From NCBI GenBank assembly GCA_046290035.1, contig JBKBUS010000001.1:1-42069 (forward strand): DNA of 42,069 nucleotides, read 5' to 3'. The notes beneath the pieces were generated by a model that did no database searches, was not told the origin of the DNA, and saw only the letters and a list, made by a program, of their open reading frames with translations. Shown one piece after another: positions 487-40,756 of the stretch (positions are counted from its first letter, which is position 1; the number at the start of each line of letters is the position of its first letter). The DNA is from Brevundimonas sp. Lineage in GTDB: Bacteria > Pseudomonadota > Alphaproteobacteria > Caulobacterales > Caulobacteraceae. A program made the position numbers and the translations under genes.

Positions 487-1380
487 TCAGGCCGCCTCCT
501 TCAGCCGACCGCGTTCGACGGCCTGCAGGACGAAGTCGCAGGCGGCCTGCGCTTGCGCCGCCGCCTTCAGGATCGCGCGGCTGTCCGACTTCAGCGCCTG
601 CAGCCAGTGGCCGATGTAGGCCGAGTGGTCCTCGATGTGGTCGGGGCGCAGTCCGGTGTGTGCCCCGAGGAAGGCGGCGCCGAGTTCGGCGACCAGCTCC
701 TCCCGGGCGTAGGCGGGATCGCCGAAGCGGGAACCGAAGGTGCGGTCCAGGCGGTGCTTGGCGCCGGTCCAGTGGATCAGCTCGTGGTGAGCCGTGGCGT
801 AGGCCTGCTCGGCGTCGCGGAACAGCGCCCGATCGGGCATGCGGATGTGGTCCGGGCCCGGGGCGTAGTAGGCGCGCTCGCCGGTCCAGCTGATGTCCGC
901 GCCGGTCGCGTCGAGGAAAGCCTCAAGTTCGGCATTCCATCGGACGTCGTAGACGGGTCGCTCGACGGGAGCGGGGTAGAACGAGGGGTCCAGGCCGTCG
1001 ATCTGGGCCACGTTGAAGACGGGGTAGCCCTTGAGGAAGCGGAAGCCGCGGCTCTCCTCCCCGTCGTCGTCGACGTCGCCGCCGCCGGACTGGCCGTAGT
1101 AGACCACAAGGGTCGAGGACTCACCCTTGCGGACCTGGCCGCCAAGGGCCGCAGCCTGACGGTAGGTCATCCAGTGACGCCCGGCCCAGCCTTCGGCCGA
1201 GGCGCGCATCCAGAGCATGACGGTGTTGATGCCGCGATAGGCCTCGCCGTTCGCCCGCAGGGGAAGGGCGACGGCGGTGCCGGCGCTGTCCCAAGGCTGT
1301 TTCCAGGGCCGCACGCCCTGCTTGAGCTGCGCGATGATGGCGTCGGTGATGCGGGCTTCGGGTCGCTGGCGCTCGCTCAT
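487..1380 (-). CDS. ardC: ArdC antirestriction / ssDNA-binding protein (DUF1738 + zincin-like domain)
   Basis: ITDAIIAQLKQGVRPWKQPW, YRGIN, WMTYRQA, VRKGE, HELIHWTG (HExxH), YAREELVAEL. GGAGG RBS precedes the ATG at 1380. Confidence 0.93.
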   Translation of the reverse strand: MSERQRPEARITDAIIAQLKQGVRPWKQPWDSAGTAVALPLRANGEAYRGINTVMLWMRASAEGWAGRHWMTYRQAAALGGQVRKGESSTLVVYYGQSGGGDVDDDGEESRGFRFLKGYPVFNVAQIDGLDPSFYPAPVERPVYDVRWNAELEAFLDATGADISWTGERAYYAPGPDHIRMPDRALFRDAEQAYATAHHELIHWTGAKHRLDRTFGSRFGDPAYAREELVAELGAAFLGAHTGLRPDHIEDHSAYIGHWLQALKSDSRAILKAAAQAQAACDFVLQAVERGRLKEAA

Positions 1381-1397
1381 GTCGGATCCTCCGCTCA

Positions 1398-1552
1398 ACC
1401 GGGGCCGATCCCCGGTCGTCCCGAGGACACCCCGGCGGGGTCCGAGCGGCGGCCGCACCCGCAGGGCCGAAGCGGAGCGGAGGACGGCTTGCCGTTGCGG
1501 CGGCCGCGCCCCGCCGTTCGCCTCGAGGGACGTTCCGGCCGGGGTCGCCCGG
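1398..1552 (+). repeat. Structured upstream element, copy A; core 1451-1500 is shared with 13578-13629
   Basis: Nested inverted repeats (e.g. 1433-1440/1509-1516) around a core that matches copy B at 42 of 52 positions by hand alignment. Confidence 0.75.
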
Positions 1553-12592: not shown

Positions 12593-13504
12593 TTAGGCGG
12601 CCAGTTCAATCACCGGGATGCCGCGCTTCCGCGCCTTGTCGACCAGGTTGTTGCGGACGCCGTTGCCGGGCCCTGCGATGACGCCGATCGGGAGGGCGTC
12701 GAGCATCCGATCATTGCGCTTGAAGGGAGCGGCGTTGCCGTGGCGCTTGAAGTCGGGCTCGAACCGGATCTGGGGGACCTTGCGGCTTTCAGCCCAGCAG
12801 GAGGCAATCTTGGCCGCACCCGTTTTGTCCCCGGTGTGAGCCAGAACCATGTCGGGGTGTTTCGCGTGGGTCTTGTCGAGGACGGCCCAGATTCGGTCGT
12901 GGTCGTTGAACGAGGCCTCGGAGATGAAGGCGATGACGGGGCCGCTCGGGGCGTGAACGACGTGATCGGCGCGGGCGCGAGCGTTCATGAAGTCGCGGGC
13001 GTCCAGCATAGCGGAGGTCAGCGTAGAGCGGTTGACCTTGCTGCCGGCGGCAGGCCGCCATGCGCTGCCGGTCTGACGGCTGTAGAGATCGGCGGCGATG
13101 TCCCGCAGAGCCTCGAAGCTGTTGCGCCGCTCGATGAGGCTGATGCCCAGAGCCGTGAGGCGTTCGAGTTCAACAGACCGGATCTCCGACCCGTCCTGAA
13201 CAAGCTGGGAGTCGCGTTGGGCAACCTCGTTGCGGTCCAGGTGGCCGTCCAGCTGGGTCACCTTCCGATGGAGCACGTTCACGACGCCCCAGAGGACATC
13301 ATCCAGGTCGGGTTCGAGCCGGGTGTCTGAGAACATGTGGCCCAGCGCGTCGAAGACGTCGCCCAAGGCCTGGTGACAGGTGGGCGCGTCGGGCAGGGGG
13401 CGAGGATCGGCCTCGTCGGTGAGAGGGCGATAGCCGAAGAGGGCCAGCTCATCGAGGAGCGCCCCGGTCGGGGTGGTCTGCTGGTGGAAAGCGCCGTCTG
13501 CCAT
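12593..13504 (-). CDS. DUF2493 (SLOG/YspA-like) domain protein
   Basis: LFGYRP..DEADPRPLP, DTRLEPDL..LWG.VN, FNDHDRIWAVLDK.HAKHPDMVLAH, AAPFKRND.ML. AGGAG upstream of the ATG at 13504. Confidence 0.85.
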   Translation of the reverse strand: MADGAFHQQTTPTGALLDELALFGYRPLTDEADPRPLPDAPTCHQALGDVFDALGHMFSDTRLEPDLDDVLWGVVNVLHRKVTQLDGHLDRNEVAQRDSQLVQDGSEIRSVELERLTALGISLIERRNSFEALRDIAADLYSRQTGSAWRPAAGSKVNRSTLTSAMLDARDFMNARARADHVVHAPSGPVIAFISEASFNDHDRIWAVLDKTHAKHPDMVLAHTGDKTGAAKIASCWAESRKVPQIRFEPDFKRHGNAAPFKRNDRMLDALPIGVIAGPGNGVRNNLVDKARKRGIPVIELAA

Positions 13505-13520: not shown

Positions 13521-13711
13521 TCTGGACGGGCCGCCCTGGCGGCCTTCACGGGGACCGATGCGGCGCAGCGGGCACGGGGCCGCACCCGGAAGGGCCGGAA
13601 CGGAGTGGAGGACCGCGAAGCGGTTGCGGAACCGGGCAGGGCGCTCTCGCCCGGCCGCTGCGCAGGTCCCCCTCTCGTGAAGGCCCCGAAGGGCGGACTC
13701 TCATGTCCAGA
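13521..13711 (+). repeat. Structured upstream element, copy B; core 13578-13629
   Basis: Five nested stems (TCTGGAC/GTCCAGA, GGCCTTCACG/CGTGAAGGCC, GGGGACC/GGTCCCC, GCGCAGCGG/CCGCTGCGC, CCGCA/TGCGG) enclose the core shared with copy A. Confidence 0.8.
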
Positions 13712-14184: not shown

Positions 14185-17100
14185 TCAGGCGGAACGCCGG
14201 CGAATGGATGTGATAGAGTGGCGGGCGATGAGGTCGCCGAGGATCCTCGGGCCGTCGGCTCCGACCGGGATGAAGAGGCGGGTCTGGTAGCTGATGATCT
14301 CGGTTCGCATTCCGGCCGCCTTCAGGCCGGGGAGGGCGGAGCGATCGGCGCCGACGACTTCGACACGCGGCAGGCCCATGACCAGGCTGCGCCGAACGGA
14401 CAAGCCGTCGGTGAGCTGCAGCGTCGCGCCGTGCTCGAGCACCATTGACCAGGCGGCCGCGGGATCGACGTCCGGGGCAGCCAGGCCGAAGGCGGTGCAG
14501 ACGCCGGGCAGGGCGGCCGGTTCGACCATCCGGCCGATGAGGCGATCGCCATTGCTTGCCTGCAGGCGGTAGACGCGCGTGGCGTCGTTGGGGAGTCGGG
14601 ACCAGATCGGCAGGAGGAGGCCGGTCACGAGGTGGAAGGTAGTTTCGGCCGTTTCCGGCAGGGCGGAGACTTCGGCCTCCCAGGCGCGGCGGAACTCCTC
14701 CGGACTGGCCGACTGCCAGTGGGAGCTATCGAGCGCCTTGCGGCTGAGGCGTTCCTGGTGAAGCGGCCGGAACAGGCGGCGGCGCTCCTCCATCTCGCCG
14801 TTTTCGTGCATGAGGGATGCCGTGCGCACGGCGACCGCGGCGCGGCCGGAGTGTTGGTTGACGAGCAAGCGACCCTCGGCCTCATCGCAGAGCCGCAGGG
14901 CGTCGCTGGAAGAAAGCGGTCGCAGGCGCTCCACCTGCCTGATCTCGATCAGGCGGGTTTCTGCGCCGCTTTCCGGGTGGGTGAAGATGGTGCGCTCGCT
15001 CACGATGTCGAACCGCTCGGCGGTCAGCTGTTCGACGCCGATCTCGTAGGTGCCGGCGGCGATCGCGGCCTCCACTTCGGCCTCAATCCGCTCCTCGAGG
15101 TAGCCGAAGATGGCGTTCTGCTGGGCGATCCGCATGGCGAGGACACGATTGAGGAAGGTGGTGATCGGCGGCAGGTCCTCCTTGAGGCTGCCGTCCTGGT
15201 CGACCAGAGACAGACCGGTCGCCTCCTCGAATTCAATCAGGCTCAAACCGGCGATTTCGCCGCGGTAGAGCATCCGGTAGAGGCGGCGCAGCGCGGTCTT
15301 GGCGTAGTCGCTTTCAAGGTTGTCCTCCGGGCGGAAGAGGCCTTGCCCGCCCGTCTGGCGCTGGCCCTTCGTGAGGGCGCCAAGGCTGTCGAGCCGCCGT
15401 GCGATGGTGGAAAGGAAGCGCTTCTCGCCCTTCACGTTCGTGGCGACCGGGCGGAAAAGCGGCGCGTGGGCCTGGTTGGTTCGGTTGGTGCGGCCGAGGC
15501 CCTGGACGGCGGCGTCAGCGCGCCATCCAGGCTCCAAGAGGTAGTGGGCCCGCTTAGCGCGGTTCTTGGCGCCGAGATCGGCGTGGTAGGAGCGACCGGT
15601 CCCGCCGGCGTCGGAGAAGACGAGGATCTGCTTCACGCCATCCATGAAGGCCGCGGTCTCGGCCTGGTTGGAGGAGGCGGGCCGGCGTTCGACGGCGAGA
15701 CGATCGCCATCCGGCCCGGATTTGCGCACGATCCGGCGCGAGCGGCCGGTCACTTCGGCGATGACATCAGACCCGAAATGCTGGATCAGCTGGTCGAGGG
15801 CCGCCCCGACCGGCGGCAACGAGCCGAGATGTTCGATCAGCTGGTCGCGGCGCTCGAGGGCGGCCTGGCAGACGACCAGGTTGCCCCCGTCGTAGGCCGG
15901 GCGGGAGCGGATGTTGCCCTCCTCGTCTGAAAAGGTCTCGTGGAGGGCGATCGGAAAGGAGTTCATCAGGTAGTCGAGGACGTACTCGCGCGGCGTCACG
16001 TCGACCTGGATGTCGCTCCATTCGCTGACGGGGATCTCGCTCAGGCGGCGTTCGGTCAGAGCTTCGCCGGTCGTCACGACCTGAATGACCGGGGCCATGC
16101 CGGCGACGAGGTCCTTCTCGATCTGGGCGATGACGGTCGGGACCTTCATCGAGTTGAGGAGGATCGAGAAGAAGCGCTGCTTCGCACCCTCAAAGGCCGA
16201 GCGGGCCGCGCCCTTGGCGTTGCCGTTCAGGGTCCCGCCATCCTCGTCGGTGACGTTCGTCAGGCGCAGCGCGTCGTCGAGGTTGTTGTGAATGACCGAG
16301 AAGGCGTCAGCGTAGGCGTCGTAGATCTCGATCTGGGCCGGGGTGAGCTCATGCTCGAGCATCTCGTATTCGACGCCGGCGTAGGACAGCGAGCGGGCGG
16401 TGTAGAGGCCCAGTGCCTTGAGGTCGCGCGCAAGCACCTCCATGGCGGCGACGCCGCCCGCCTCCATGGCCGCCACGAAGCTGGCCCGGGTGGGGAAGGG
16501 GAAGTTGGCGCCGCCCCAAAGGCCCAAGCGCGCCGCGTACCCGAGGTTGGAGACAACCGTCGCCCCGGTCGCGGAAACGTAGAGGATTCGGGCGTTCGGC
16601 AGGGCGTTCTGCAGGCGCAGACCAACCTTGCCCTGTTCAGAGGGGCCCCGATCGCCGCGGGCGCCCTTCTCGCCGGCGGCGTTCGCCATGGCGTGGGCCT
16701 CGTCGAAGATGATGAGGCCGTCGAAGTCCGGGCCGAGCCAGGCCAGCAGCTGGTCGAGGCGCGATGCCTTGTCTCCTCGCGGGCCCGAGCGGAGGGTGGC
16801 GTAGGTGGTGAAAAGGATCCCTTCGGTCAGGGTGATGGTGGCGCCGAGCGGGAAGCGGGACTGCGGGACGATCTGCTGGGGCAGGCCCCCGAGAGCGCTC
16901 CAATCTCTGCGGGCGTCCTCGATCAGGGGATCGTTCTTGGAGACCCAGACGATGCGACGACGGCCCTGCAGCCAGTTGTCCAGTCCAATGGCGGCCGACT
17001 GCCTCCCCTTGCCCGCACCTGTGCCATCGCCGAGAAAGAAGCCCCGGCGATAGGCCGCGCCGTTGTCCTCGCCGGCGGCGATGAGGTTGTCGTAGCTCTC

Positions 17101-18510
17101 ATCGGCCTTCCAGCGACCGGGCAGATGGGCGGCGTGGGCCTCGCCAGCGTAGATGACGGTCTCGAGCTGGGCGCCGGAGAGGGCGCCGTCGGTGACAAGT
17201 CGAGCGGGCAGGAGAGGACGGTAGGTCGGAACCGGCAGCCGCACGGCGGCCATGGCGACGGATTCGACAAGCGTAGTCGGATGCGCCTGGGCCCCGGCGA
17301 TGTCGATCGTGGCGACGGCGTAGGATTCGTAGAGTCCCTCGCTGGAGCCGACCTGAGCCGCGTTCTTGGCGCGTAGGGTGTAGGCCAGAGGTTGGACGTC
17401 CTGGAAGTCGGCCGAGGCGGCCGGCGTCACCGGCGCATGTTTGGCGGGCTTCAGGGTCGGGCGGAGTAGGACCGGCCGAGCGACGACAGGCCGCGGCCGC
17501 GGCTCGACGCGAAGGCGGGGCGCGAGGTTCTGCAGGGAGGCCAGCAGGTCAGCGGTGTCGACCGCCATGGGCGAGGAGGGGCGCGGCGCTTCAGCAGGCG
17601 CGGCCACCTTGTCGACGACGGTCAGGCGGGTGTCGGTCGTGGTGCCGTGACGCGCGTAGGCGCGGCCGTCGAGGGCGCGGGTGAAGATGACCTGGCCGCC
17701 GGCGGCGCGAAGCGCATCGTAGCGATCTGGAAATTGCTCCGGGGACAGACCAGCGCCGGTGATGGCCACCAGGCGCCCGCCGATCGACAGGCGTTCAAGA
17801 GCTGCGGCGATGTGGCGGAAGTCTGCGCCGGCCGACCGCCCGGAGATGTTGGGCGAGGCCGAGAACGGGGGGTTCATCAGCACGAGGGTGGGGCGGATCG
17901 ACGGGTCGAGGCGGTCGTTCAGCTGCTCGGCATTGTGGCGGGTGACAGGATTGTCCCGGAAAACCGCATCGAGCAGCTCGGCGCGCTTGGGGTCCAGCTC
18001 GTTCAGGTGAACGCGAGCGCCGGCCAGCTCGGGGAAGACGGCGAGAAGGCCGGTGCCGGCGCTGGGCTCGATGACAACGTCGCCCGGCCGCGGGTCCAAA
18101 GCGGTGGAAGCGACATAGGCGAGATCCAGGGGGGTGGAGAACTGCTGGAAGGCGACCTGATCTTCCGAGCGGCGGGTCTGAGAGGGCGCGAGGCCGCTGA
18201 TGTCGACCAAGCGAGCGAGAGTGTCGGCCGGGGCGATGCCGTTGCCCATGAGGGTGGCGCTGTGCCGGCGGAGGAAGAGCACCTGAGCCAGCTCGGCCGC
18301 TTCATAGGCGTCCTTCCAGGTCCACGCGCCCTCCGCGTCGGAGGCGCCGAAGGCGTCCTGCAGCGTGGTGCGCAGAACGCGGGCGTCCAGCTGGCGACCC
18401 TTCGCCAGAGACAGGGCGAGGACCCAAGCGGCCGCGACCAGGCCGTCAGTGCGCGAGGTGGCGCCGAACAGGTTGATGCTGGACGTTGAGAAGAGGGCGT
18501 CTTGGGACAC
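14185..18510 (-). CDS. N6-adenine methyltransferase fused to a strawberry-notch family SF2 helicase (DarB-like architecture)
   Basis: QQFSTP, EPSAGTG (motif I), NPPF (motif IV), GDGTGAGKGR (Walker A), DEAH, SATGA, QGLGRTNRTNQ. GGAG RBS + GTG at 18510. Confidence 0.92.
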   Translation of the reverse strand: MSQDALFSTSSINLFGATSRTDGLVAAAWVLALSLAKGRQLDARVLRTTLQDAFGASDAEGAWTWKDAYEAAELAQVLFLRRHSATLMGNGIAPADTLARLVDISGLAPSQTRRSEDQVAFQQFSTPLDLAYVASTALDPRPGDVVIEPSAGTGLLAVFPELAGARVHLNELDPKRAELLDAVFRDNPVTRHNAEQLNDRLDPSIRPTLVLMNPPFSASPNISGRSAGADFRHIAAALERLSIGGRLVAITGAGLSPEQFPDRYDALRAAGGQVIFTRALDGRAYARHGTTTDTRLTVVDKVAAPAEAPRPSSPMAVDTADLLASLQNLAPRLRVEPRPRPVVARPVLLRPTLKPAKHAPVTPAASADFQDVQPLAYTLRAKNAAQVGSSEGLYESYAVATIDIAGAQAHPTTLVESVAMAAVRLPVPTYRPLLPARLVTDGALSGAQLETVIYAGEAHAAHLPGRWKADESYDNLIAAGEDNGAAYRRGFFLGDGTGAGKGRQSAAIGLDNWLQGRRRIVWVSKNDPLIEDARRDWSALGGLPQQIVPQSRFPLGATITLTEGILFTTYATLRSGPRGDKASRLDQLLAWLGPDFDGLIIFDEAHAMANAAGEKGARGDRGPSEQGKVGLRLQNALPNARILYVSATGATVVSNLGYAARLGLWGGANFPFPTRASFVAAMEAGGVAAMEVLARDLKALGLYTARSLSYAGVEYEMLEHELTPAQIEIYDAYADAFSVIHNNLDDALRLTNVTDEDGGTLNGNAKGAARSAFEGAKQRFFSILLNSMKVPTVIAQIEKDLVAGMAPVIQVVTTGEALTERRLSEIPVSEWSDIQVDVTPREYVLDYLMNSFPIALHETFSDEEGNIRSRPAYDGGNLVVCQAALERRDQLIEHLGSLPPVGAALDQLIQHFGSDVIAEVTGRSRRIVRKSGPDGDRLAVERRPASSNQAETAAFMDGVKQILVFSDAGGTGRSYHADLGAKNRAKRAHYLLEPGWRADAAVQGLGRTNRTNQAHAPLFRPVATNVKGEKRFLSTIARRLDSLGALTKGQRQTGGQGLFRPEDNLESDYAKTALRRLYRMLYRGEIAGLSLIEFEEATGLSLVDQDGSLKEDLPPITTFLNRVLAMRIAQQNAIFGYLEERIEAEVEAAIAAGTYEIGVEQLTAERFDIVSERTIFTHPESGAETRLIEIRQVERLRPLSSSDALRLCDEAEGRLLVNQHSGRAAVAVRTASLMHENGEMEERRRLFRPLHQERLSRKALDSSHWQSASPEEFRRAWEAEVSALPETAETTFHLVTGLLLPIWSRLPNDATRVYRLQASNGDRLIGRMVEPAALPGVCTAFGLAAPDVDPAAAWSMVLEHGATLQLTDGLSVRRSLVMGLPRVEVVGADRSALPGLKAAGMRTEIISYQTRLFIPVGADGPRILGDLIARHSITSIRRRSA

Positions 18511-18625
18511 GAGCGGATCTCCGATGCTGCTGATCGCGATCGCCGGAGGGCTCTCTCTCCCATTCCCCGATCGCATCCCTTTCCCAGCCTCTCTCTTCCT
18601 CTCGAGGCCGGAAGCCGCTCCGACG

Positions 18626-18862
18626 TCAGCCGGCGTGGCGCGCTGGTTGCGGCTGGAAGAGGGGCAGGGCGGAAGCGTCGGCCGACGTCGTGTCGCCGAG
18701 GCGCGGATAGGGCAGGGCGGGGAGGTGCCGCGCGGCCAATTTGGCTGCGAGGGTGAGCGGCCAAGCGTAGACGTACTTGCCCGCGCCGAGCCGTTTGAGG
18801 ATCTGTCTCTCGGCGATCAGCCGATCGAGCCAGGCGCGGGGCGTCTCGTGGGGTCGGCGAGA
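18626..18862 (-). pseudogene. 3' remnant of a Mom-like DNA-modification gene; 5' part missing
   Basis: RRPHETPRAWLDRL...GKYVYAWPL...LPALPYPR resembles the Mom-family C-terminus (Y..L...PYPK). Upstream of about 18865 the frame is simply antisense traN. Confidence 0.5.
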
Positions 18863-18865
18863 AGC

Positions 18866-21490
18866 CAGGAATGCCGGTCGATCTACGTGCCGGTGTTCGA
18901 CACCGACTACGTCTACGCCTGCCGGCAGGGAACCGAGTGGCGCAGCGAGAGCCGGACCTGCGAGCCCGAGCGGATCGTCACGGTCGACGAGGACTACGTC
19001 TATACCTGTCAAACCGGGACGATCTGGACCCACACGCCGGCGAGCTGCCAGCGGCGGCGGATCGTCGTCGTCGACGAGGACTATCAGTACGGCTGCGTCC
19101 AGACCTGGAACGGAAGCACCCACGCCGGCAACGCCGCCTGTACGGCGGTCGGCCAGCCGGGCTGCACCCCCACGACCGGCCGTGTCTGCACCCAGCCCTC
19201 CGGTCTGCCGTCGAGCTACACCTGCCAGACCGGCTACCAGGGAACGGTGAGCGGTCAGGCCTGCGGTGAGACGCTGAACGTCTCGACATCTTCGACGTGG
19301 CTCTACACTTGGAACACCGGCAAGACGACGCTTCAGCGGCCGATGACGGATCCTTTCGCGGACGCGGGATGCGCGGGCGGGCGCCCCTACAAGTCCGGCA
19401 GCTTCTATCAGTACGATTATAGCTGTCCGGCGAAGTTGCCGGAGCCTATCCGCGTCGAGTTCGGCAGCGCCTGGCTGGTGTCGCAGTCCGGCACTGTCAC
19501 GGGCACAACCTGGAGCCCGGACGGAGGCTCCTGCACGGCCGCGGAATCGAGCGCGTGCTCCTTCTCGCGTTATGTCTGTCTGGAAGGCCCGGAGACCCGC
19601 ACCGTCAACGGAGTTGCGGTCTATCAGGACTGCTGGCGCCGGAACGCCGAATATACCTGTGGTTCGCGCACCGACTATGCGGGCTGCTCGCCGCCGGCTG
19701 GGATGACCGAAAGCGGCTCGCGCTGCATCGCCACCGACTCGGCCGGGACCTGCACCGGGACGGAGCGGACCTACACCGACCCCTCGGCGGGCTGCACCCG
19801 CTACGAACAGGGCGTGCGCTGCGAGACGCAGGTGCCGGGCGCCGGAACGCCGAGCGAGATCCTGCGCGATGTCGTTTCGGACACGTGGGACAACGGCTGC
19901 GCGGCGCTGCGGGGCAATGGCGCGTGCGTGAAGCAGGGCGAGGTCGTCATCGAGGGCGAGCAGACCCGCGTCATCAACGGCCTGCCGGTCACTCGCAATC
20001 CCTGGACCGTGCGCGAGGACTACATCTGTTCGTCGTCGTCGAATGTGAACAGCTGCTCGCCGTTCACGGGGTGCGTCCAGCAGGCGCAGAGCTGCGCCAG
20101 CCAGGACCGGGCGGGGAACTGCACCGCCTACAACCGCACCTACCGGTGTGAGAACCCGGCGAACGATGGCGGGACGCCCGTCGAGACGCCGCGCGAGGTC
20201 GTCGGAGAATACTGGACCGACCCCTGCGCGACGAACCGCAACGACCCGGCCTGCCGGATGACGGCCAACGAGGTCGTCATCGGCAACGAGACCCGCGTCA
20301 TCAACGGCCTGTCGGTGACGCGCGACCCGTGGCGCCGCCGCGAGACCTGGACCTGCGACCGGTCCTCGCCGGTCAACACTTGCGCGCCGCTTGCGGGCTG
20401 CACCCAAACGGGTCAGGTGTGCGGCGGCCGAGCGCCTGACGGATCGTGCTCGGTTTACGACAACGTCTATCGCTGCGAGGTCGAGACTCCGCCGGCGGGC
20501 ACGCCGACCGGGACCGTCACGGACCAGGTGGGTGGCGGGATGGAGCCCCAGGCCTGCGAAGCGCGCACCGATGGCGCCTGCCGTCTCACCAACAGCGAGT
20601 GCACGCAGCCGGGCGGGACGCGGAACGTCAATGGCGTCCCGACGACCGCCGACTGCTGGGAACAGACCGACACCTACACCTGCGAGGGCCTCGGCCCGAC
20701 CGAGTCGAGCTGCAATCCGCCTTCGGGTTGCGAGCTGAAGGAAGAGGTCTGCCTGGACGACGTCCCGGCCGATCAGTGCCGGGCGTGGGAGAACGTCTAC
20801 GAGTGCACCCGCGAGGTCGTCACCGAGGAGACGAACAACAGCTGCCAGACCCGGGTCTGCATCGGCGATATGTGCGTGGGGACCGAGGACGAGGGCTCCG
20901 ATGAGATGCCGGACGCCCTCGCGGCGCTGCTGGCGGCCCGTCTTGCGGGCGAAGACTATTCGGAGAACCTGACGATCTTCAAAGGTCAGCCGATGCGGTG
21001 CCGCAAGGCCATCTTCGGCTTCCGGAACTGCTGCAAGGACTCGGGCTGGGGCGTCGACCTGGGCCTGACGCAGTGCTCGGAGGAAGAGAAGACCTTGATG
21101 CAGCGTCAGGAGGCCAAGGCGACCCACTACGTGGGGACCTACTGCTCGCAGAAGAGCTTCTTCGGCGTCTGCATCGAGAAGTCGATGCGCTATTGCGCCT
21201 TCGAAGGCACGATCGCGCGGATCGTCCAGGAGGCGGGCCGTCCGCAGGTGAACAAGACCTGGGGCACGCCGAAGGAGGCCGACTGCTCGGGCTTCACGAT
21301 CGAGGAATTCCAGCAGCTCGATCTGACCAACGTCGATTTCTCCGACTTCACCGACGAGATGATGAGCCGGTTCACGTCGCCGGATCCGAACAGCACGATC
21401 GGCCGCATCCAGTCGAACATCGAGAACCTGATGGGCTCGGGTTCGCCCGGGTTCGGTGAGACCAACGAAGCCGGCGGAGACGGGGAATGA
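18866..21490 (+). CDS. traN: F-type mating-pair stabilisation protein TraN, 5'-truncated
   Basis: Cys-rich, with C-terminal IFKG..RCRK...NCCKDSGWG..LGL.QCSEEEK.L, YVGTYC, YCAF...ARIVQE.GR.Q, DCSGFT.EEFQ.LD...DFSDF. No signal peptide or credible start upstream. Confidence 0.9.
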   Translation, partial: QECRSIYVPVFDTDYVYACRQGTEWRSESRTCEPERIVTVDEDYVYTCQTGTIWTHTPASCQRRRIVVVDEDYQYGCVQTWNGSTHAGNAACTAVGQPGCTPTTGRVCTQPSGLPSSYTCQTGYQGTVSGQACGETLNVSTSSTWLYTWNTGKTTLQRPMTDPFADAGCAGGRPYKSGSFYQYDYSCPAKLPEPIRVEFGSAWLVSQSGTVTGTTWSPDGGSCTAAESSACSFSRYVCLEGPETRTVNGVAVYQDCWRRNAEYTCGSRTDYAGCSPPAGMTESGSRCIATDSAGTCTGTERTYTDPSAGCTRYEQGVRCETQVPGAGTPSEILRDVVSDTWDNGCAALRGNGACVKQGEVVIEGEQTRVINGLPVTRNPWTVREDYICSSSSNVNSCSPFTGCVQQAQSCASQDRAGNCTAYNRTYRCENPANDGGTPVETPREVVGEYWTDPCATNRNDPACRMTANEVVIGNETRVINGLSVTRDPWRRRETWTCDRSSPVNTCAPLAGCTQTGQVCGGRAPDGSCSVYDNVYRCEVETPPAGTPTGTVTDQVGGGMEPQACEARTDGACRLTNSECTQPGGTRNVNGVPTTADCWEQTDTYTCEGLGPTESSCNPPSGCELKEEVCLDDVPADQCRAWENVYECTREVVTEETNNSCQTRVCIGDMCVGTEDEGSDEMPDALAALLAARLAGEDYSENLTIFKGQPMRCRKAIFGFRNCCKDSGWGVDLGLTQCSEEEKTLMQRQEAKATHYVGTYCSQKSFFGVCIEKSMRYCAFEGTIARIVQEAGRPQVNKTWGTPKEADCSGFTIEEFQQLDLTNVDFSDFTDEMMSRFTSPDPNSTIGRIQSNIENLMGSGSPGFGETNEAGGDGE

Positions 21491-22457: not shown

Positions 22458-23936
22458 ATGCGCTGGATCAACGACCGCGCCCGCAAGGGCGCCCAACAGA
22501 AAACCCCGGCCGACAAGGCGACCCGCGGCCGCCGGCGTCGACGTCTCGCCCTGGTCGCGCTGACCACGACGAGCCTGACGCTCTTCTCGGCCTCGGCGCC
22601 GTTGGCGGACATCAACGACAGCATGGACGGTTATTGGTCGAGCTCGATCGGCTCGGCGAATGTGACCGGCCCGACCGCCTTCCAGGGCCAAAGCGCCGGC
22701 TATTACACGCTGGGCAACGTGGCCTTCCGGGGGCCGCAGGAAACAACGCAGATCGGGGCGATCCAGCTGCCCTCCGTTCGCGCCGGTTGCGGCGGGATCG
22801 ACATCTTCAGCGGCGGCTTCAGCTTCATCAACAGTGATCAGCTGGTCGCGCACATGAAGGCGGTCGCCTCGAATGCGATCAGCTACGCCTTCATGCTGGC
22901 CATCAAGAGCCTGTCGCCGATCGTCGCCGACCAGATCGAGTCCCTGCAGAAGGTCGCCGGCGACATCAACCAGTTCAACATGAACAGCTGCCAGCAGGCG
23001 CAGGCCCTGGTGGGGGGCCTTTGGGGTCGGAGCGACACGGCGTCGAACCAGATCTGCACGGACCTTTCGACGTATCGCGGCTTCTACTCGGACCGGATCG
23101 CGGCGCGGCATGACTGTCCGAACCGCATGGCGCAGAACCTCAACAATCTGCCGGAGTCTGACAAGAAGGTCATTCCGATCAACAAGAACATCGCCTGGGA
23201 GGCCACCCGGCAGCACCCGCTGTTGGCTGGCGACCGCGACCTGGCCGAGCTGTTCATGACGCTGACCGGGACCATCATCTATCGCTGCCCCGACAACAAC
23301 GGCTGCATCATCGACGTGCTGCCGGCGGAGGGCGCCAAGGATGGCGTGATCACCAAGCTGCTCGATGGCGGCGCGGTTCGGGTCCATCGCTGCGACACGA
23401 CCGACAAGTGCCTGAACCCGGTCAAGTATGGTGGGACGCAGACGCTCGCGTCGAACCGGGCGCTGAAGAACCGCGTCGAGGCGATGCTCCGGAGCATCAT
23501 CAACAAGATCCAGTCCCGCCAGACCCTGAGCCCGGCGGAGCAGGACTTCCTGAACATGGTGTCCCTGCCGGTCTACAAGATGGCCAGCGTGTATTCGGCG
23601 CAGCAGGGCGCGGCCGCGGCTGGAACGATGGCGCAGTACGCCGACGTGATCGCGCTGGACATGGTCTACACCTGGATCAACCGGTCGGTTTCGCAGGTGG
23701 AAGACGGCGCCCGGAACATGGTCGGCGTCGACGAGGTGCAGCTGGCCGAGTGGCGCGAGAGCATTGAGCAGGTTCGCTCGATCCTGAACGAGCGCCAGCA
23801 GGTCCTGAATTCGAAGACGTCGGCGATCGAGGACATGATCGCGCGGACGCAGCGGGCCGAACAGCAGCTGGCCGCTCGGATGGGCACGCGGATCGGCGAG
23901 ACCATCGCCTTCTCGGCCAGTATGACCCCCAACTGA
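22458..23936 (+). CDS. traH: F-type pilus assembly protein TraH
   Basis: NVTGP.AFQGQSAGYYTLG, LPSVRAGCGGIDIFSGGFSFIN, NSCQ.AQ.LV, MTLTGTII. Confidence 0.93.
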   Translation: MRWINDRARKGAQQKTPADKATRGRRRRRLALVALTTTSLTLFSASAPLADINDSMDGYWSSSIGSANVTGPTAFQGQSAGYYTLGNVAFRGPQETTQIGAIQLPSVRAGCGGIDIFSGGFSFINSDQLVAHMKAVASNAISYAFMLAIKSLSPIVADQIESLQKVAGDINQFNMNSCQQAQALVGGLWGRSDTASNQICTDLSTYRGFYSDRIAARHDCPNRMAQNLNNLPESDKKVIPINKNIAWEATRQHPLLAGDRDLAELFMTLTGTIIYRCPDNNGCIIDVLPAEGAKDGVITKLLDGGAVRVHRCDTTDKCLNPVKYGGTQTLASNRALKNRVEAMLRSIINKIQSRQTLSPAEQDFLNMVSLPVYKMASVYSAQQGAAAAGTMAQYADVIALDMVYTWINRSVSQVEDGARNMVGVDEVQLAEWRESIEQVRSILNERQQVLNSKTSAIEDMIARTQRAEQQLAARMGTRIGETIAFSASMTPN

Positions 23937-23946
23937 GGACGGCGAG

Positions 23947-28393: not shown

Positions 28394-28618
28394 TCAGGGG
28401 CGGCCGTCTTCTTTCGGGCGATCGCCACTTGGGAAGAGCACCACCTCGCCGGCAGGCTTGTCGGTGACGTCCTCAATGTCCGCGATCGGATCGAGGCCCA
28501 CGGCCGCCAGCGGCCCGGAAAGCTCGCCCAGGAGGCCGCTGACGGTCGCCCCGCTGTCCGGCGGCATGGCTTTCGCCACGATCAGCTGAATGGCGCGTAG
28601 CGCCTCCAAGTGGGTCAT
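28394..28618 (-). CDS. Hypothetical protein (74 aa) coupled to the ligase
   Basis: ATGA overlap with the ligase stop at 28615-28618. Confidence 0.55.
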   Translation of the reverse strand: MTHLEALRAIQLIVAKAMPPDSGATVSGLLGELSGPLAAVGLDPIADIEDVTDKPAGEVVLFPSGDRPKEDGRP

Positions 28619-29598
28619 GCCGGCCGCTCCCGCCGAACCTCGAGCGGCTCCTTGTCTTCGCGGAGCCCCTTGAAGCTGGCCTGGCGCAGCCGCCCACTGT
28701 CCGTCCACTCGGCGATCTCGGCCGCGGCCACCAGCCGGGGCTCGACGAAATGGACTTCGTCGCCGCGATCGGCGCGGGGTTGGGCGCCGACGAAAGGAGA
28801 ACGGGGGCGCGCAAGGGCCTTCAGGCGCGGCCGCAGGTCCTGCAGCTGGCGATCGGCGAAGCCCGTCTTCAGTGCGCCGGCGTAGCGCAACTCCCCGCGC
28901 TCGTAGACGCCGGTGAGCAGGCCCTTGAATCGGCCGTCCGGACCGCTCCGCCATCCCCCAACGACGACCTCCTGGCTCGGCCGGCACTTAACCTTCGCCC
29001 AAACCGATGTCCGGCCTGCGCGATAGTTCTCGCCAAGCTTCTTGGACACGATGCCTTCCAACTTCATCCTGCAGGCGGCCTCGAGCAGCTGGGCCGCCGG
29101 CAGATCGTCGAAATGGTCGACGTAGCGGATCCTGTTGGCCAGGCCGCCGCCGGCGGCCGCGAGGATCTCCTGCAGCGCCTTCTTCCGTGTGGCGAGCGAG
29201 TAGGGCCGAAGATCCGTCGGGCCGCGCCAGAGGACATCGAAAGCGAAGTAGACCAACGACCCGCTCGTGCGGGCATTGAGCGCCTTTCGGAGTGCCGAGA
29301 AGGCCGGCTGGCCAGCCGCGTCCAGGGCACATAGCTCGCCGTCGAGGATGCAGTCCTCGAGGCCAGCCGCGGCGGCCGAGTGGCGAGGGAGCTTTTCGGT
29401 CCAGTCATGGCCGTTTCGGGTGAACCAGGTCGCCTTTCCGCCGGCGACGTTCAGCTGGAAGCGGTAGCCGTCGAATTTGATCTCATGGATCCAGTCGCGG
29501 CCTTGGGGAGGCCGCTGCAGAAGCGTCGGATGTGCCAGCGCCAGGAAGGTGCGGGGCATGATTGGAGTGAGCTCGATGTCCTGCTTTCGCCTAGCCAT
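28615..29598 (-). CDS. ligD: ATP-dependent DNA ligase (stand-alone LigD ligase domain)
   Basis: WIHEIKFDGYR (adenylation Lys), LDGEL, AFDVL, EGIVSKK, W.KVK, OB-fold VEPRLVA.....EWT..GRLRQASFKGLREDK. Confidence 0.9.
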   Translation of the reverse strand: MARRKQDIELTPIMPRTFLALAHPTLLQRPPQGRDWIHEIKFDGYRFQLNVAGGKATWFTRNGHDWTEKLPRHSAAAAGLEDCILDGELCALDAAGQPAFSALRKALNARTSGSLVYFAFDVLWRGPTDLRPYSLATRKKALQEILAAAGGGLANRIRYVDHFDDLPAAQLLEAACRMKLEGIVSKKLGENYRAGRTSVWAKVKCRPSQEVVVGGWRSGPDGRFKGLLTGVYERGELRYAGALKTGFADRQLQDLRPRLKALARPRSPFVGAQPRADRGDEVHFVEPRLVAAAEIAEWTDSGRLRQASFKGLREDKEPLEVRRERPA

Positions 29599-34923: not shown

Positions 34924-37900
34924 CTACAGACTCGGGGAATGGGTGGGGCCAGTGGGTTCGTGCTGCTTTTCGAAGGCCTTCTCGTCGGCCTTCTCCGGAG
35001 CCTCGGCCTTCTCCTGGTCGACACCGGGAAGCTCGGGAGCTTTCGCCTTGTCGGCCGCCGGCTCACTCTTGTCGGATCCGTCGAGACCGTCCTTGGCCAA
35101 GCTGGCCAGTTCCTTCTCGGCGCCCGCCTGGGTCAGCGCCTCCGCCAGCTCGTGGCTGGCGATGGCGTTGTGGCCGCTCTGCTTGTTGAGCTTCATGACG
35201 AGGGTGCCGAGGTCGTTCGTGACGAACGTGACCTGCTCGGCCGTGCGGGAGACCTGAACGTAGGCCCGCGCCTCGGTGGCGGCCTCGCCATGCTTGCTCG
35301 AGAGGACGGCGACGACGTCCTTGTAGGTCGAGCCCTGCGAACGGTCGGCGGTCTCGGCGTAGCCGTGGCTAATGTAGCGGAGCTGAGGATCCGACTCCTT
35401 CATGACCGTGGTGGTCCCGTCGGCCTTGCGAACGTGCCACTCCCCGTTCTCGATCTTGTCGACGGTGAAGCGCCCGCCGACCTTTAGGTCGCGGTCCTTG
35501 TCTGTGCGGTCCCAGACGAGGGTTTCGCCCTCGCGCACCTCAAGCTCGCGGCTGGTGTAGGCTTCGAAGCGGCGCTTGTTGGGGTCGGCCGACAGGTCGA
35601 TCGAGACGCGGCCGCCCTTCTCGCGCTCCACGACCAGGAGGTTGTTGCGCTCGTCGCGGCCGACGACGGTGACGGTGTCGTTCTTCGACAGCCCAAGATC
35701 CTTGACGCCTCGGTGGAAGACCAGGACCTGGCCCTCGCGATAGCTCGAGGCGAGGCTGGTCTCGGCGCGAGACATTCGCACCGGGGCCAAGGTGGGGACG
35801 GTTTTGCCCTCGCCGAGGCGGCCTTCGGCGATCAGCTGGGTGCGAACCTTGTCAGCGACCTCGGCCCGCAGGCTGTTGGTCGGAACGATGATCGGCGGGA
35901 GAGCGCCCGTCTGGGCCCGATAGCCATTCCAGGCCGCCACCGCCGCGTCCGCCAGGTGCACGTCGGCCGCATTCCGGCCGACCTGAACCACCCGATCGCC
36001 CAGCGCGCGGAACGCGCCTGAGATCTCGGATTTCGCCAGCCGTTCAACGGCCGTGCGAATCTCGGGATCCTTCTGCCGGCGGATCTCGGTCATGCTGGCG
36101 TGCTGGATGTCGCTGCTGAGCGCCAGACGCCAAGGCGCCCCCGCCTCCGGGGATCCGAGCTGACGTTCGTCGCCGATCAGCACGACGCGCTCGAGGCCCA
36201 ATGTCGCCCGGGCCCGGGCGAGCCGATCCATCTGAGCGTTCGAGAGCATCGAGGCCTCGTCGGCCAGCAAGGTGCGGCCAGCCCACTTCTCCTGCAGGGC
36301 CTTGAGGCCCTCCCCTCCCCGTTCCTCCTCCCGCTCGACACGGCTGAGGAAGGCCTCGACGGTTTCGGCCTTGATTCCGGCCTCCCGCGTCATCGCCTCG
36401 GCGGCCTGGTGGGTGGGCGCGATGCCCGCCAGCTCGATCCCGCGGCTCTGCGCGATCTCGTTGACGACGCGGAACATCGTCGTCTTTCCGACGCCGGCGA
36501 GCCCCTGAACGCCTACAAATCGGTCACTCGACGTCAGCAGGAGGGTGGCGGCCGCCGTCTGGCCCTCGTTGAGGACGATCGCCCCGTCCCCGCGCGCGGC
36601 CAGGCGCTGCAGATGGGCGGACGCCTCATGCGCGGCCATCATGGGCGCGGCAGCACCCCGACCGTCCTCGATCTCGCGCACCAGGCGGCGCTCGAGGGCC
36701 AACGCCCCGTCAGTGGTCAAGCCGTCCCGGATCGTCCGATCGGCGGCGAGAACCTTGCCGCCGGCCGACAGGCCATCGATCTGGGCCTCGATGCGATCGA
36801 CCGTGAGTCCGGCCCGTCCGAACTCGAGCGCTCGGCCGACAATGTCATGTCGGGTGAAGACGGCCTTGCCTTGCTCGGCCACCCGGACGGCGAAGTCGAC
36901 GGCGGCGACAGCCTCGCGGTCGGCGCCGGAACGATATGGCGTGTCGTGAAGCTTTGTCGCCCGGCCGGTGATGGCCCGGAAGGCAGCAAGGAATTTCGAC
37001 TTCGCGTCGCTGGCCTTGCCGGTGACCACAGGGGTCACATCAGCGGCTGGGGCGTCGCGGCCCTTGGCGGTCTGGACGATCCCGGCGCTGTCCAGGCCCA
37101 CGGCCTTCGCATCTGATTGCCAGCGGTTCTGGAGCTGGGCCCGCGGGATGTCGAGCTTCTTCGGCCGGTCGCGCAGGACGAGCGCATCACGCTGCGCACC
37201 GCTCAGCTCGCCGTGCTTTTCCTTCTCGATCTTCAGGGCTTCGCGGATGTCGGCGTTGCGCTTGGAGAAGGCCTGCAGCTGAGAGCGTCTGAACGCCGCC
37301 AGCTCGAACGTCCCCTTCGTGGTGTCGCGCTTCACGTCGTAGCCGAGCGCCATGACGCTCTTTGCCAACTCGGCTCGGTAGACGGCGCCCAGGAGCTTCA
37401 TGTTCTTGAAGAGGTGAAGGCTCTCCAGAGCGCGGAACTTGCCCGCCTTCTCGTCCCAAGTGGCGTTGGCAACGACGTTGTGGGTGTGCAGCTGGGGATC
37501 GCCCTTGCGAGACGTGGTGTGCTCGGTCGACGCGTAGATCAGGTTGCCGGTGCGGACCTCCCGGAGACTGCCCTTGTCGCGGACCCTGGTGACCGCGAAG
37601 TATTTCTCCGCATAGGCCATGGCCCGATCGACCGCGGCGCGATGCGCCGCCACCAGGCGTTCGTCACCGCCGACCAGGTAGGCCAGGCTCACCGACTTCG
37701 GCGCCGAGAAGGTCATGTCCCAGCCCGGGCGGTGCTTGTCGTCGGGCTTGGCGGCGCGGTCTGGATCCTGAAGGGTCGGATGCGTTCCGCTCAGCACCTG
37801 GCGGAACTGCGCCGATGTCGCGGTGCCGCTGAGGCCTGCCTGCGCAGCCCCCTTCCCTTTCCATTCAACGCCGGGAGCGTCGGCCTCGCCGGTAACGTAG

Positions 37901-37968
37901 TAGTCGTCCTTGCCGTAGTATTCGGCGGCCCCGCCGGCGCTGCCGATCGCGCTAACTGACAGCATCAC
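34924..37968 (-). CDS. trwC: MOBF relaxase-helicase (TrwC/TraI family)
   Basis: EYYGKDDYY catalytic tyrosines, DMTFSAPKSVS, HTTSRKGDPQLHTH, GLAGVGKTT, DEASM, GDERQL, SQGST. Confidence 0.95.
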   Translation of the reverse strand: MMLSVSAIGSAGGAAEYYGKDDYYVTGEADAPGVEWKGKGAAQAGLSGTATSAQFRQVLSGTHPTLQDPDRAAKPDDKHRPGWDMTFSAPKSVSLAYLVGGDERLVAAHRAAVDRAMAYAEKYFAVTRVRDKGSLREVRTGNLIYASTEHTTSRKGDPQLHTHNVVANATWDEKAGKFRALESLHLFKNMKLLGAVYRAELAKSVMALGYDVKRDTTKGTFELAAFRRSQLQAFSKRNADIREALKIEKEKHGELSGAQRDALVLRDRPKKLDIPRAQLQNRWQSDAKAVGLDSAGIVQTAKGRDAPAADVTPVVTGKASDAKSKFLAAFRAITGRATKLHDTPYRSGADREAVAAVDFAVRVAEQGKAVFTRHDIVGRALEFGRAGLTVDRIEAQIDGLSAGGKVLAADRTIRDGLTTDGALALERRLVREIEDGRGAAAPMMAAHEASAHLQRLAARGDGAIVLNEGQTAAATLLLTSSDRFVGVQGLAGVGKTTMFRVVNEIAQSRGIELAGIAPTHQAAEAMTREAGIKAETVEAFLSRVEREEERGGEGLKALQEKWAGRTLLADEASMLSNAQMDRLARARATLGLERVVLIGDERQLGSPEAGAPWRLALSSDIQHASMTEIRRQKDPEIRTAVERLAKSEISGAFRALGDRVVQVGRNAADVHLADAAVAAWNGYRAQTGALPPIIVPTNSLRAEVADKVRTQLIAEGRLGEGKTVPTLAPVRMSRAETSLASSYREGQVLVFHRGVKDLGLSKNDTVTVVGRDERNNLLVVEREKGGRVSIDLSADPNKRRFEAYTSRELEVREGETLVWDRTDKDRDLKVGGRFTVDKIENGEWHVRKADGTTTVMKESDPQLRYISHGYAETADRSQGSTYKDVVAVLSSKHGEAATEARAYVQVSRTAEQVTFVTNDLGTLVMKLNKQSGHNAIASHELAEALTQAGAEKELASLAKDGLDGSDKSEPAADKAKAPELPGVDQEKAEAPEKADEKAFEKQHEPTGPTHSPSL

Positions 37969-40724: not shown

Positions 40725-40756
40725 ACCTAACCGCAGGTGTGCGTAGGGTGTGCACG
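40725..40756 (+). other. oriT core with MOBF nic site, predicted nick at 40751/40752
   Basis: ACCT-AACCGC-AGGT hairpin then TGCGTAGGGTGT^G, matching F-family nic (F: TGCGTGGGGTGT^GG). Located upstream of the trwABC-like operon. Confidence 0.8.

What the first reader, a model, noticed from the sequence alone, without database searches (positions are those of the whole stretch)
1398..1552. Conserved, covarying multi-hairpin element upstream of ardC and DUF2493, apparently built to fold on the transferred strand
Seen: core A (1451-1500) GGCCGCA-CCC[GCA]GGG-CCGAAGCGGAGCGGAGG-ACGGC[TT]GCCGT-TGCGG; core B (13578-13629) GGCCGCA-CCC[GGAA]GGG-CCGGAACGGAGTGGAGG-ACCGC[GAA]GCGGT-TGCGG. They match at 42/52 positions with a compensatory G-C/C-G swap in the second hairpin, loops that vary, and long outer stems of unrelated sequence. 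Both cores end roughly 120 nt upstream of a minus-strand start codon. Known: GNA triloops (GCGAAGC) and CTTG loops are extra-stable in ssDNA; GAAGCGG, present in both, is the primosome-assembly-site motif; Frpo/ssi and IncN CUP repeats act in leading regions. The stable loops read correctly only on +, which is not the mRNA but is the T-strand predicted from nic. Inference: an alphaproteobacterial family of ssDNA promoters or priming signals coupling DNA entry to anti-defence gene expression, possibly read by the plasmid's own primase.
Basis: partly seen in the sequence, partly recalled or inferred. Interest (0 to 1): 0.85.

Follow-up and report, generated by a model that had tools for sequence, protein, structure and literature searches.

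The report
Four-way-junction single-strand DNA promoter family
A conserved folded-DNA cassette sits just ahead of the anti-restriction gene ardC and a second gene on this conjugative element; it likely works as a promoter only while the DNA is single-stranded, and related copies occur in many alphaproteobacterial plasmids, in insertion sequences of other bacteria and in plasmid R388.

Summary
The two cores are real (42 of 52 aligned positions identical) and belong to a large family. The 'linker' is a third covarying hairpin, so the core is a four-way DNA junction with GNA triloops. The closing stem starts with a sigma70-type -35 hexamer (TTG in 108 of 115). In the plasmid-type copies the stem loosens at the -10 position and re-pairs beyond it, and an RBS plus ATG lies 55-110 nt away on the template side (61 of 71, against 6 of 71 on the other side). 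This is Frpo/ssp-like geometry without sequence similarity to F or ColIb-P9 promoters. The copy lies on the predicted transferred strand in 38 of 46 contigs, on both strands in 2, and only on the other strand in 6, including R388. A second form, whose stem ends at -10 and which has no adjacent gene, is a roughly 150-nt cassette shared by ends of unrelated insertion sequences. GAAGCGG is not conserved (20 of 115), and nothing supports the plasmid primase. Window copy A lacks a -11A. There is no experimental evidence. Verdict: likely a new class of ssDNA promoter/primer site.

The parts
487..1380 (-). ardC (anti-restriction, ssDNA-binding metalloprotease family); predicted target of copy A
   Evidence: Pfam ArdcN 8.8e-36, MPTase-PolyVal 5.9e-48; ATG 77 nt from junction A1457
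1387..1392 (-). Ribosome-binding site of ardC (GGAGGA on minus)
   Evidence: sequence
1398..1416 (+). Copy A: hairpin at the base of the stem; would lie in the 5' leader of the predicted transcript
   Evidence: fold; a hairpin at about +1 to +30 recurs across the family (read by eye)
1417..1457 (+). Copy A: 5' arm of the long stem = predicted template strand; predicted start of RNA near 1420
   Evidence: constrained DNA fold; start site inferred from spacing
1458..1466 (+). Copy A: hairpin P2, CCC-GCA-GGG
   Evidence: sequence; P2 covaries in a set found without fixing it
1467..1483 (+).
   Evidence: inner pairs, left free in the search, are Watson-Crick in 105 of 120
1484..1495 (+). Copy A: hairpin P4, A-CGGC-TT-GCCG-T
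1495..1500 (+). Copy A: -35-like hexamer TTGCGG straddling the junction (first T closes P4, the rest pairs in P1)
   Evidence: TTG in 108 of 115
1496..1532 (+). Copy A: 3' arm = predicted non-template strand; bubble at 1517-1519 where a -10 would be, but no -11A
12593..13504 (-). DUF2493 / YAcAr SLOG-family gene; predicted target of copy B
   Evidence: Pfam PF10686 1e-24; ATG 80 nt from junction A13584; orthologue named DUF2493 in L007
13533..13584 (+). Copy B: 5' arm (predicted template); predicted RNA start near 13550
   Evidence: start site inferred
13585..13624 (+). Copy B: P2 13585-13594 (CCC-GGAA-GGG), P3 13595-13611 (inner AC:GT), P4 13612-13624 (A-CCGC-GAA-GCGG-T)
13624..13629 (+). Copy B: -35-like hexamer TTGCGG at the junction
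13625..13694 (+). Copy B: 3' arm with an extruded side hairpin (13639-13652); A13664 falls at helix position 24, the family's A peak (candidate -11A)
   Evidence: assignment inferred
34924..37968 (-). MOB-F (TrwC-type) relaxase; context that defines the transferred strand
   Evidence: Pfam TrwC 2e-81
40740..40751 (+). nic-like site; makes + the predicted transferred strand
   Evidence: similar site in B. nasdae plasmid L001 at 25750 and in F

Best explanation
The element is a roughly 150-nt DNA fold-back whose head is a four-way junction, and it likely acts as a promoter for host RNA polymerase only when its strand is single-stranded. Shown by sequence comparison: four helices meet without spare bases; three carry GNA loops; the closing stem starts with TTG(C/A)N(N); in plasmid-type copies the stem loosens about 17 bp further on and re-pairs; an RBS and ATG lie about 80 nt from the junction on the template side. 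Inferred: when the plasmid strand enters a recipient it folds, P4 stacks on P1 so that the -35 hexamer is double-stranded across the junction, the sigma70 holoenzyme binds there, opens the already mismatched -10 region and runs down the stem, copying the 5' arm into an mRNA with a leader of about 40-45 nt for ardC, DUF2493, DUF736 or ParB-like genes. Second-strand synthesis would erase the fold and switch it off; in duplex DNA the hexamer faces away from the gene. The same RNA may serve as a primer, which is likely the only job of the gene-less form in IS ends, R388 and small plasmids.
For: Structure: inner P3 pairs GC:GC 69, AC:GT 31, AT:AT 5 of 120, left free in the search; covariation 0.334 against 0.088 in shuffles (0 of 500) and at most 0.041 when slid (29 equal-length cores); P2 covaries in an independent set. 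DNA and strand: P4 loop is GNA in 34 of 34 copies with the commonest arm length; d(GNA) loops are very stable in DNA (PMC3201870, abstract); G-T pairs outnumber A-C 54 to 11 in P1, and the element strand folds better in 102 of 113 with DNA parameters. Promoter geometry: TTG in 108 of 115; plasmid-type pairing mostly 0.6-0.8 over the spacer, 0.37-0.51 at positions 24-30 (-12 to -6), 0.57-0.75 again at 33-50; A at position 24 in 35 of 71; same dip, A24 in 17 of 32 and TA at 23 in 11 of 32 in an independent metagenome set; RBS+ATG on the template side 61 of 71 against 6 of 71; in the TTGAC form A at predicted +1 in 23 of 42, and sharing between unrelated IS ends stops at about +68, the end of the -10 region. 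Context: ArdC 23, DUF736 19, DUF2493 11, ISL3 transposase 5 of 120; T-strand only in 38 of 46 contigs. The 5'-RACE-mapped class 2 and 3 promoters (PMC12672017, passages), located by me upstream of the named genes in F and ColIb-P9, also put TTGCAT below a branched head, with TA 15 nt later. ArdC is needed in recipients (PMC7213743, start of abstract only).
Against: No experiment; RNA runs were contigs only and uninformative. The -10 is weak: TA at 23-25 in only 13 of 71 plasmid-type and 16 of 42 TTGAC-type copies, no A peak at +1 in the plasmid type (11 of 73), and window copy A has TTC in the bubble and no -11A, although -11A is essential at a duplex Rhodobacter promoter (PMC7703639, section 10). 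Six contigs have the element only on the non-transferred strand and two on both, so T-strand bias could partly follow the orientation of leading genes. Copy A alone folds slightly better on minus. P1 and P4 pair counts are inflated because the junction finder selected for pairing; P2 and the CC/GG pairs were fixed by the first pattern. Sequences are related and so not independent. T-strand calls rest mostly on relaxase orientation, checked against nic-like motifs (recalled consensus) in about ten loci.
Confidence: 0.68

Rival explanations
1. It is mainly a priming signal (ssi/sso): host RNA polymerase, PriA/DnaG or another protein loads on the junction and starts the complementary DNA strand; the neighbouring genes are secondary.
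For: The TTGAC form has a stem ending at the -10 position and almost never an adjacent ORF (1 of 39). Copies sit late on the T strand in L300 and G203:C1, near oriV in R388, and in a Zot-bearing inovirus-like contig (L139). P3 resembles the GA-flanked GNA hairpin next to GAAGCGG in ColE1 (that this is pas-BL is recalled). F ssp1/Frpo transcripts appear to prime in vivo (bioRxiv 10.64898/2026.01.09.698686, part 2).
Against: A primer-only site does not need an RBS and ATG at a fixed distance (61 of 71 against 6 of 71). GAAGCGG is not conserved (20 of 115). For the two window copies both roles are compatible.
Confidence: 0.14
2. It is a protein-binding or roadblock structure on ssDNA (for ArdC, DUF736, a REP-type HUH nuclease or a junction-binding protein) that delays second-strand synthesis or marks a site; expression comes from another promoter.
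For: The P3 hairpin alone is also the core of a REP-like repeat (40 of 119 metagenome hits; REP identity recalled). F ssp2 is a structural roadblock (bioRxiv 10.64898/2026.01.09.698686, part 2). Elements lie next to IS110, IS21, IS3 and integrase genes in mixed orientation.
Against: It does not explain the TTG at the junction, the bubble and A peak one spacer length away, or the A at predicted +1. A roadblock role can coexist with the promoter, as for ssp2.
Confidence: 0.08
3. It works in double-stranded DNA: an ordinary promoter firing away from ardC (antisense or divergent RNA), a cruciform extruded by supercoiling, or a CUP-like operator of short direct repeats.
For: Some copies read as good duplex promoters (TTGACA-17-TATCTT in L129). 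The element follows the template strand of its gene even when that is not the T strand.
Against: Joint changes across P1, P3 and P4 show pairing within one strand, not a duplex operator. The downstream side lacks RBS/ATG enrichment (6 of 71). The arms are too mismatched for easy cruciform extrusion (inference).
Confidence: 0.06
4. It is a cis-regulatory RNA in the leader of the minus-strand mRNA, or a small RNA from the plus strand.
For: Fixed position 5' of genes; RNA folds are also stable, and the element strand is favoured in 85 of 113 with RNA parameters.
Against: On the mRNA strand P3 and the loops become pyrimidine mismatches (TNC), and G-T pairs become A-C (54 to 11). C-GNA-G triloops with a free middle base are a DNA motif rather than GNRA tetraloops (PMC3201870; RNA comparison recalled). 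No Rfam match.
Confidence: 0.04

Closest known systems
Class 2 and class 3 ssDNA promoters (ssp2 of F; klcA, ardA and M.EcoGIX promoters of IncI1), PMC12672017, PMC13478746
   Same: Long GC-rich fold-back on the template strand 5' of anti-defence genes; a TTG hexamer on the 3' arm just below a branched, purine-rich head; TA one short spacer later.
   Different: No covariance-model or significant BLAST hit in the F leading region or ColIb-P9 1-50 kb. The head here is a compact four-way junction with the GNA/GNA hairpin P3, absent there. Also found off the T strand and in IS ends.
Frpo1/Frpo2 (ssp1a/b) of F and ssi1-3 of ColIb-P9 (class 1)
   Same: Fold-back that rebuilds -35/-10; proposed dual role as promoter and primer (as described in PMC11541004, PMC9849209 and the 2026 preprint; Masai and Arai 1997 not read).
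   Different: About 330-400 nt with a long simple apical stem (sequences in PMC11541004 supplement 7; folds) against about 150 nt with a cloverleaf; no sequence similarity.
n'-pas / ColE1 pas-BL primosome assembly site
   Same: A GA-flanked hairpin with a GNA loop (ColE1 region).
   Different: GAAGCGG in only 20 of 115; no model hit in ColE1; a -35 and promoter spacing are present here.
GTCA/CGTC-type REP repeats (name recalled)
   Same: Share the P3 hairpin almost letter for letter (40 of 119 hits).
   Different: REPs lack P1, P2, P4, the long stem and the fixed downstream gene.
CUP repeats of IncN (recalled) and the ArdK-repressed promoters of R388 (PMC3937220, passages)
   Same: Repeated element upstream of ardC-type establishment genes.
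   Different: Those are repressor-controlled duplex promoters. R388's own ardC has a class-2-like stretch upstream, not this element; R388's copy lies elsewhere, on the opposite strand.

Membership tests
ssDNA promoters in general (Frpo/ssp) | Stable fold-back on the template strand directly 5' of the gene | tested here: met
ssDNA promoters in general (Frpo/ssp) | -35 box rebuilt as duplex on the 3' arm | tested here: met
   TTG in 108 of 115, paired in P1/P4
ssDNA promoters in general (Frpo/ssp) | -10 box at promoter spacing | tested here: inconclusive
   bubble and A peak in the family, but TA in only 13 of 71 and 16 of 42; absent in window copy A
ssDNA promoters in general (Frpo/ssp) | On the transferred strand, in the leading region | tested here: inconclusive
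   T strand only in 38 of 46 contigs, both in 2, other strand only in 6; window copies on + = predicted T strand, distance from oriT unknown
ssDNA promoters in general (Frpo/ssp) | Transcription from ssDNA and not dsDNA; zygotic induction | not testable with these tools
   RNA runs were contigs only
Class 1, 2 or 3 ssDNA promoter (sequence families) | Sequence/structure homology to the F or ColIb-P9 elements | tested here: not met
   no model hit, best BLAST E 0.17, P3 motif absent
n'-pas (PriA site) | Conserved GAAGCGG at a fixed place in the structure (motif recalled) | tested here: not met
   20 of 115, in different helices in copies A and B
n'-pas (PriA site) | PriA ATPase stimulation and primosome-dependent priming | not testable with these tools
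   needs biochemistry
Site for the plasmid's own primase | Always co-occurs with a cognate primase gene | tested here: not met
   R388 and L300 annotations list no primase; IS cassettes have none among the flanking ORFs scanned; the window does encode a primase-like ORF at 32196-33461
Rfam cis-regulatory RNA | Match to an Rfam model | tested here: not met
CUP-type operator/promoter repeats | Duplex promoter facing the gene with repressor boxes | tested here: inconclusive
   the TTG faces away from the gene in duplex DNA; repressor binding not tested; no CUP sequence was compared

The most novel reading that the evidence does not exclude
A portable Holliday-like DNA junction builds a -35 box across two stacked helices and serves as a general RNA-polymerase loading module for single-stranded DNA. 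Conjugative plasmids, integrative elements, at least four IS families and some phages have each picked it up. Copies on the non-transferred strand, and back-to-back pairs in front of divergent DUF736 genes, fire in the donor while it is exporting DNA. That would give a donor-side ssDNA-triggered gene programme and a primer for replacement-strand synthesis, and would let IS elements sense when they are single-stranded.
Probability: 0.22. Interest if true: 0.88.

Novelty: new variant of a known kind. Interest (0 to 1): 0.68.

Why it matters
The ssDNA promoters described in the papers I could read come from enterobacterial F and IncI1 plasmids, plus candidates from a few other islands. This family would show how alphaproteobacterial plasmids and ICEs (Rhizobium, Agrobacterium, Bradyrhizobium, Sphingomonadales, Caulobacterales) switch on ardC and other establishment genes on entry. 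It is short and sharply defined, so it is an easy substrate for structural work on RNA polymerase bound to folded ssDNA, and a marker for the leading region and for unannotated establishment genes. A copy in the model plasmid R388 makes it directly testable in E. coli. The copies off the transferred strand and in IS ends raise the question of whether ssDNA sensing also runs in donors and in transposition.

Tried and rejected
Rfam: no match. Energy of the two window copies alone does not identify the strand. GAAGCGG/pas and own-primase readings rejected. Contig circularity: none. The rest of the tra region (traB, C, U, W) and ssb were not found in the 66%-complete genome by tblastn, and no third copy either. 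RNA evidence: 20 of 24 runs held a small share of a Rhizobium homologue, all as contigs; four were laid and cannot show start, strand or level. Annotated phages: 9 weak hits, none covering 80%. The small ~62-aa protein driven by non-T-strand copies has no NCBIfam match and only unnamed Atlas clusters. In the relaxase-strand count I left out contigs with no relaxase hit, two where the nearest relaxase was over 250 kb away (G140:C1, G171:C5) and G034:C2, which has the same coordinate as G103:C2; TrwC was not searched in the 23 family genomes; only 50 of the 124 loci were taken to whole-genome search, chosen as alphaproteobacterial. Literature: ten searches, including exact 13-16-nt motifs, found no description; subscription papers are not covered. 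Two reviews I wanted (hairpins in prokaryotes; unusual DNA motifs) were not held, so the GNA/GNA 'zipper' structure of P3 is recalled, not cited. Supplementary figure S3 of PMC12672017 and preprint supplements were not seen and could show related folds.

Full report
Setting. The window is one whole 42,069-nt contig of a 66%-complete genome. It carries a MOB-F relaxase, coupling protein, traN/F/H/G, repC, a parA-like gene, a strawberry-notch helicase, ligD, a primase-like gene, ardC and a DUF2493/YAcAr gene. The closest annotated relative is a 76.8-kb Brevundimonas nasdae plasmid (relaxase 47.8% identical; map). A nic-like site on + at 40740-40751, like the F site read from the F record, makes + the predicted transferred strand. 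The contig is not circular.

Observation. Only these two copies exist in the window and in the assembled genome. Rfam has nothing.

Family. BLAST of the cores hits 253-386 plasmid records, mostly Rhizobiales. A covariance model found matches in 38 of 121 genomes of the window's family at E up to 0.01, many of them weak. It also found one in R388 (45 bits), in 8 of the 8 viral loci that I gave it out of 13, and none in the F leading region, ColIb-P9 1-50 kb or ColE1.

Anatomy. Its inner pairs were left as N in the scan and came back GC:GC 69, AC:GT 31, AT:AT 5, AC:GA 12, other 3 of 120; both main types occur in plasmid and non-plasmid hosts and even between the two window copies. The core is therefore P1, P2, P3 and P4 meeting with no spare base. 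On 29 equal-length cores 96.9% of cells pair and covariation is 0.334, against 0.088 for shuffles and at most 0.041 for slid registers; P2, fixed in that set, covaries in a metagenome set found with another pattern (32 four-way copies among 119 hits). P4 varies from a 3-bp hairpin to an arm of over 100 nt. Loops are C-GNA-G with any middle base (34 of 34 for the commonest P4 length), a loop that is very stable in DNA (PMC3201870, abstract). The sheared G-A structure of P3's internal loop is recalled, not tested. G-T pairs outnumber A-C pairs 54 to 11 in P1 and the element strand folds better in 102 of 113 cases with DNA parameters, but copy A on its own folds slightly better on minus.

Promoter geometry. 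A junction was found in 115 of 120; 108 begin the 3' arm with TTG (TTGCGG 36, TTGACA 19, TTGACG 18, TTGCGC 9), the first T closing P4 and the rest pairing in P1. The finder required the second T and favoured pairing, so these counts lean upward. In 71 plasmid-type copies mean pairing is mostly 0.6-0.8 over the spacer, falls to 0.37-0.51 at positions 24-30 (-12 to -6) and recovers to 0.57-0.75; A is at position 24 in 35 of 71. The independent set repeats this. An RBS with ATG lies 55-110 nt from the junction on the template side in 61 of 71, mostly 77-85 nt, against 6 of 71 on the other side; the window copies are at 77 and 80 nt. The genes are ArdC 23, DUF736 19, DUF2493 11 and ISL3 transposase 5 of 120, with 62 unassigned by that test. 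Against this: TA at the -12/-11 position is present in only 13 of 71 and 16 of 42, the plasmid type has no base preference at +1, and copy A has TTC in its bubble and no -11A. Alphaproteobacterial promoters often lack -7T but -11A is essential in duplex DNA (PMC7703639, abstract and section 10); that a pre-opened bubble relaxes this is my inference. Copy B has an A at helix position 24 if its side hairpin is extruded. The RACE-mapped class 2 and 3 promoters (PMC12672017, passages), which I located upstream of the named genes, show the same logic with a different head: TTGCAT below a branched top, TA 15 nt later.

Strand. Taking the T strand as the one opposite the nearest relaxase gene within 50 kb (whole record for the complete plasmids), the element is on the T strand only in 38 of 46 contigs: 14, 15, and the window, B. 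nasdae, Phaeobacter, Ancylobacter and L300. The rule agreed with nic-like motifs wherever I looked (consensus recalled). B. nasdae has three clear and three weak copies, all on + between oriT and the replicon. Two contigs have back-to-back copies on both strands before divergent DUF736 genes, and six have copies only on the other strand: R388 and five MOB-P elements, where each copy keeps its 75-86-nt spacing to a 60-70-aa ORF of unknown function. So the element tracks the template strand of its gene, which is usually but not always the transferred strand. ssDNA also builds up in donors during F transfer (PMC9849209, passages), which gives such copies a possible trigger. These genomes are kin and not independent.

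Second form. Forty-two copies with TTGAC come mostly from Acidobacteriota and other non-alphaproteobacterial genomes. Their stem ends at position 24-25, an A sits at predicted +1 in 23 of 42, followed by a template hairpin, and there is no adjacent ORF (1 of 39). The same cassette, from about -83 to +68, is shared at 85-92% identity between ISL3 left ends and IS21- or IS3-adjacent sites whose flanks are unrelated; others adjoin IS110, tyrosine integrase or AAA_25 genes in mixed orientation. R388 and L300 have this short-stem form. A primer role fits these best. P3 alone is also the core of a REP-like repeat (40 of 119) and resembles a hairpin near the ColE1 origin, so it is a reused ssDNA module.

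GAAGCGG occurs in 20 of 115 and in different helices in A and B. Carriers without an annotated primase argue against the plasmid primase.

Mechanism and odds. Most likely (0.68) a host-RNA-polymerase promoter that exists only in ssDNA, driving establishment genes and able to prime; primer-only 0.14; binding site or roadblock only 0.08; duplex function 0.06; RNA 0.04. Structure, spacing and context are shown; polymerase binding, start sites and timing are inferred.

Novelty. It works like Frpo/ssp promoters but fails the sequence test for classes 1-3. Ten literature searches found no description. Papers seen: bioRxiv 10.64898/2026.01.09.698686 parts 1-2 of 4; PMC11541004 passages and supplement 7; PMC12672017, PMC13478746, PMC9849209, PMC3937220 and PMC5737381 passages; PMC7703639 abstract and section 10; PMC3201870 abstract; PMC7213743 listing only. 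Earlier AI notes of this scan describe similar fold-backs in other genomes; I did not see their sequences and do not count them as support. Verdict: new variant of a known kind, interest 0.68.

Noticed in passing
L151 (R388) 25442-25495, minus strand: The model plasmid R388 carries a clear copy (45 bits) between its nuclease gene and the next ORF of the kfrA-osa region, about 1.3-2 kb from the replication origin and on the non-transferred strand; its template side shares two hairpins with the copy in the 9-kb plasmid L300.
   Followed up: partly
L151 (R388) about 23860-23960, plus strand: Upstream of R388 ardC is a stretch resembling F ssp2 (class 2 ssDNA promoter), on the transferred strand, besides the known ArdK-repressed promoter.
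   Followed up: partly
L016, L022, L040, L048, L058; L026, L035, L036: A 150-nt cassette with the cloverleaf is shared by ISL3 left ends and by sites next to IS21/IS3 genes, in IS-rich metagenome-assembled genomes of Vicinamibacterales and others.
   Followed up: partly
L294 6557-7000; L297 14303-14753: Back-to-back copies on opposite strands, each in front of its own DUF736 gene, close to a MOB-P nic-like site.
   Followed up: partly
L291 2801-2989; L293, L295, L296, L292: Small 60-70-aa ORFs of no known family, several clearly related, follow the non-T-strand copies; in L291 and L295 a different fold-back with a P3-like hairpin precedes ardC on the T strand.
   Followed up: partly
L139 30-86; L136, L140, L141, L142, L143, L144: Copies in viral contigs, one beside a Zot-domain gene (inovirus-like), others near capsid, portal or amidase genes; L140 and L141 have near-consensus -10 boxes.
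   Followed up: partly
L184, L187, L190, L200 and others: A REP-like repeat (GTCATT-CC-GNA-GC-GNA-GC-GNA-GG-AATCT) contains the same P3 hairpin.
   Followed up: no
window 40829-40863 and 41101-41135: A 35-nt direct repeat (80% identical) just 3' of the nic-like site; the region 41175-41325 is also the strongest-folding of the intergenic stretches I scanned.
   Followed up: no
window 14185-21490: The F-type tra block starts at traN directly after the strawberry-notch helicase; traL to trbC, present in the B. nasdae relative, are missing here, and traB, C, U and W were not found elsewhere in the assembly, so the element may be defective, rearranged or incompletely assembled.
   Followed up: partly
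window 28615-29610 and 32196-33461: A LigD-type ligase and a zinc-finger/DUF7146 primase-like gene lie in the trailing part, next to several HTH genes.
   Followed up: no
L135 (F) and L149 (ColIb-P9), class 2 and 3 promoters: In both classes TTGCAT is followed by TA after only 15 nt on the non-template arm, shorter than the usual 17.
   Followed up: no
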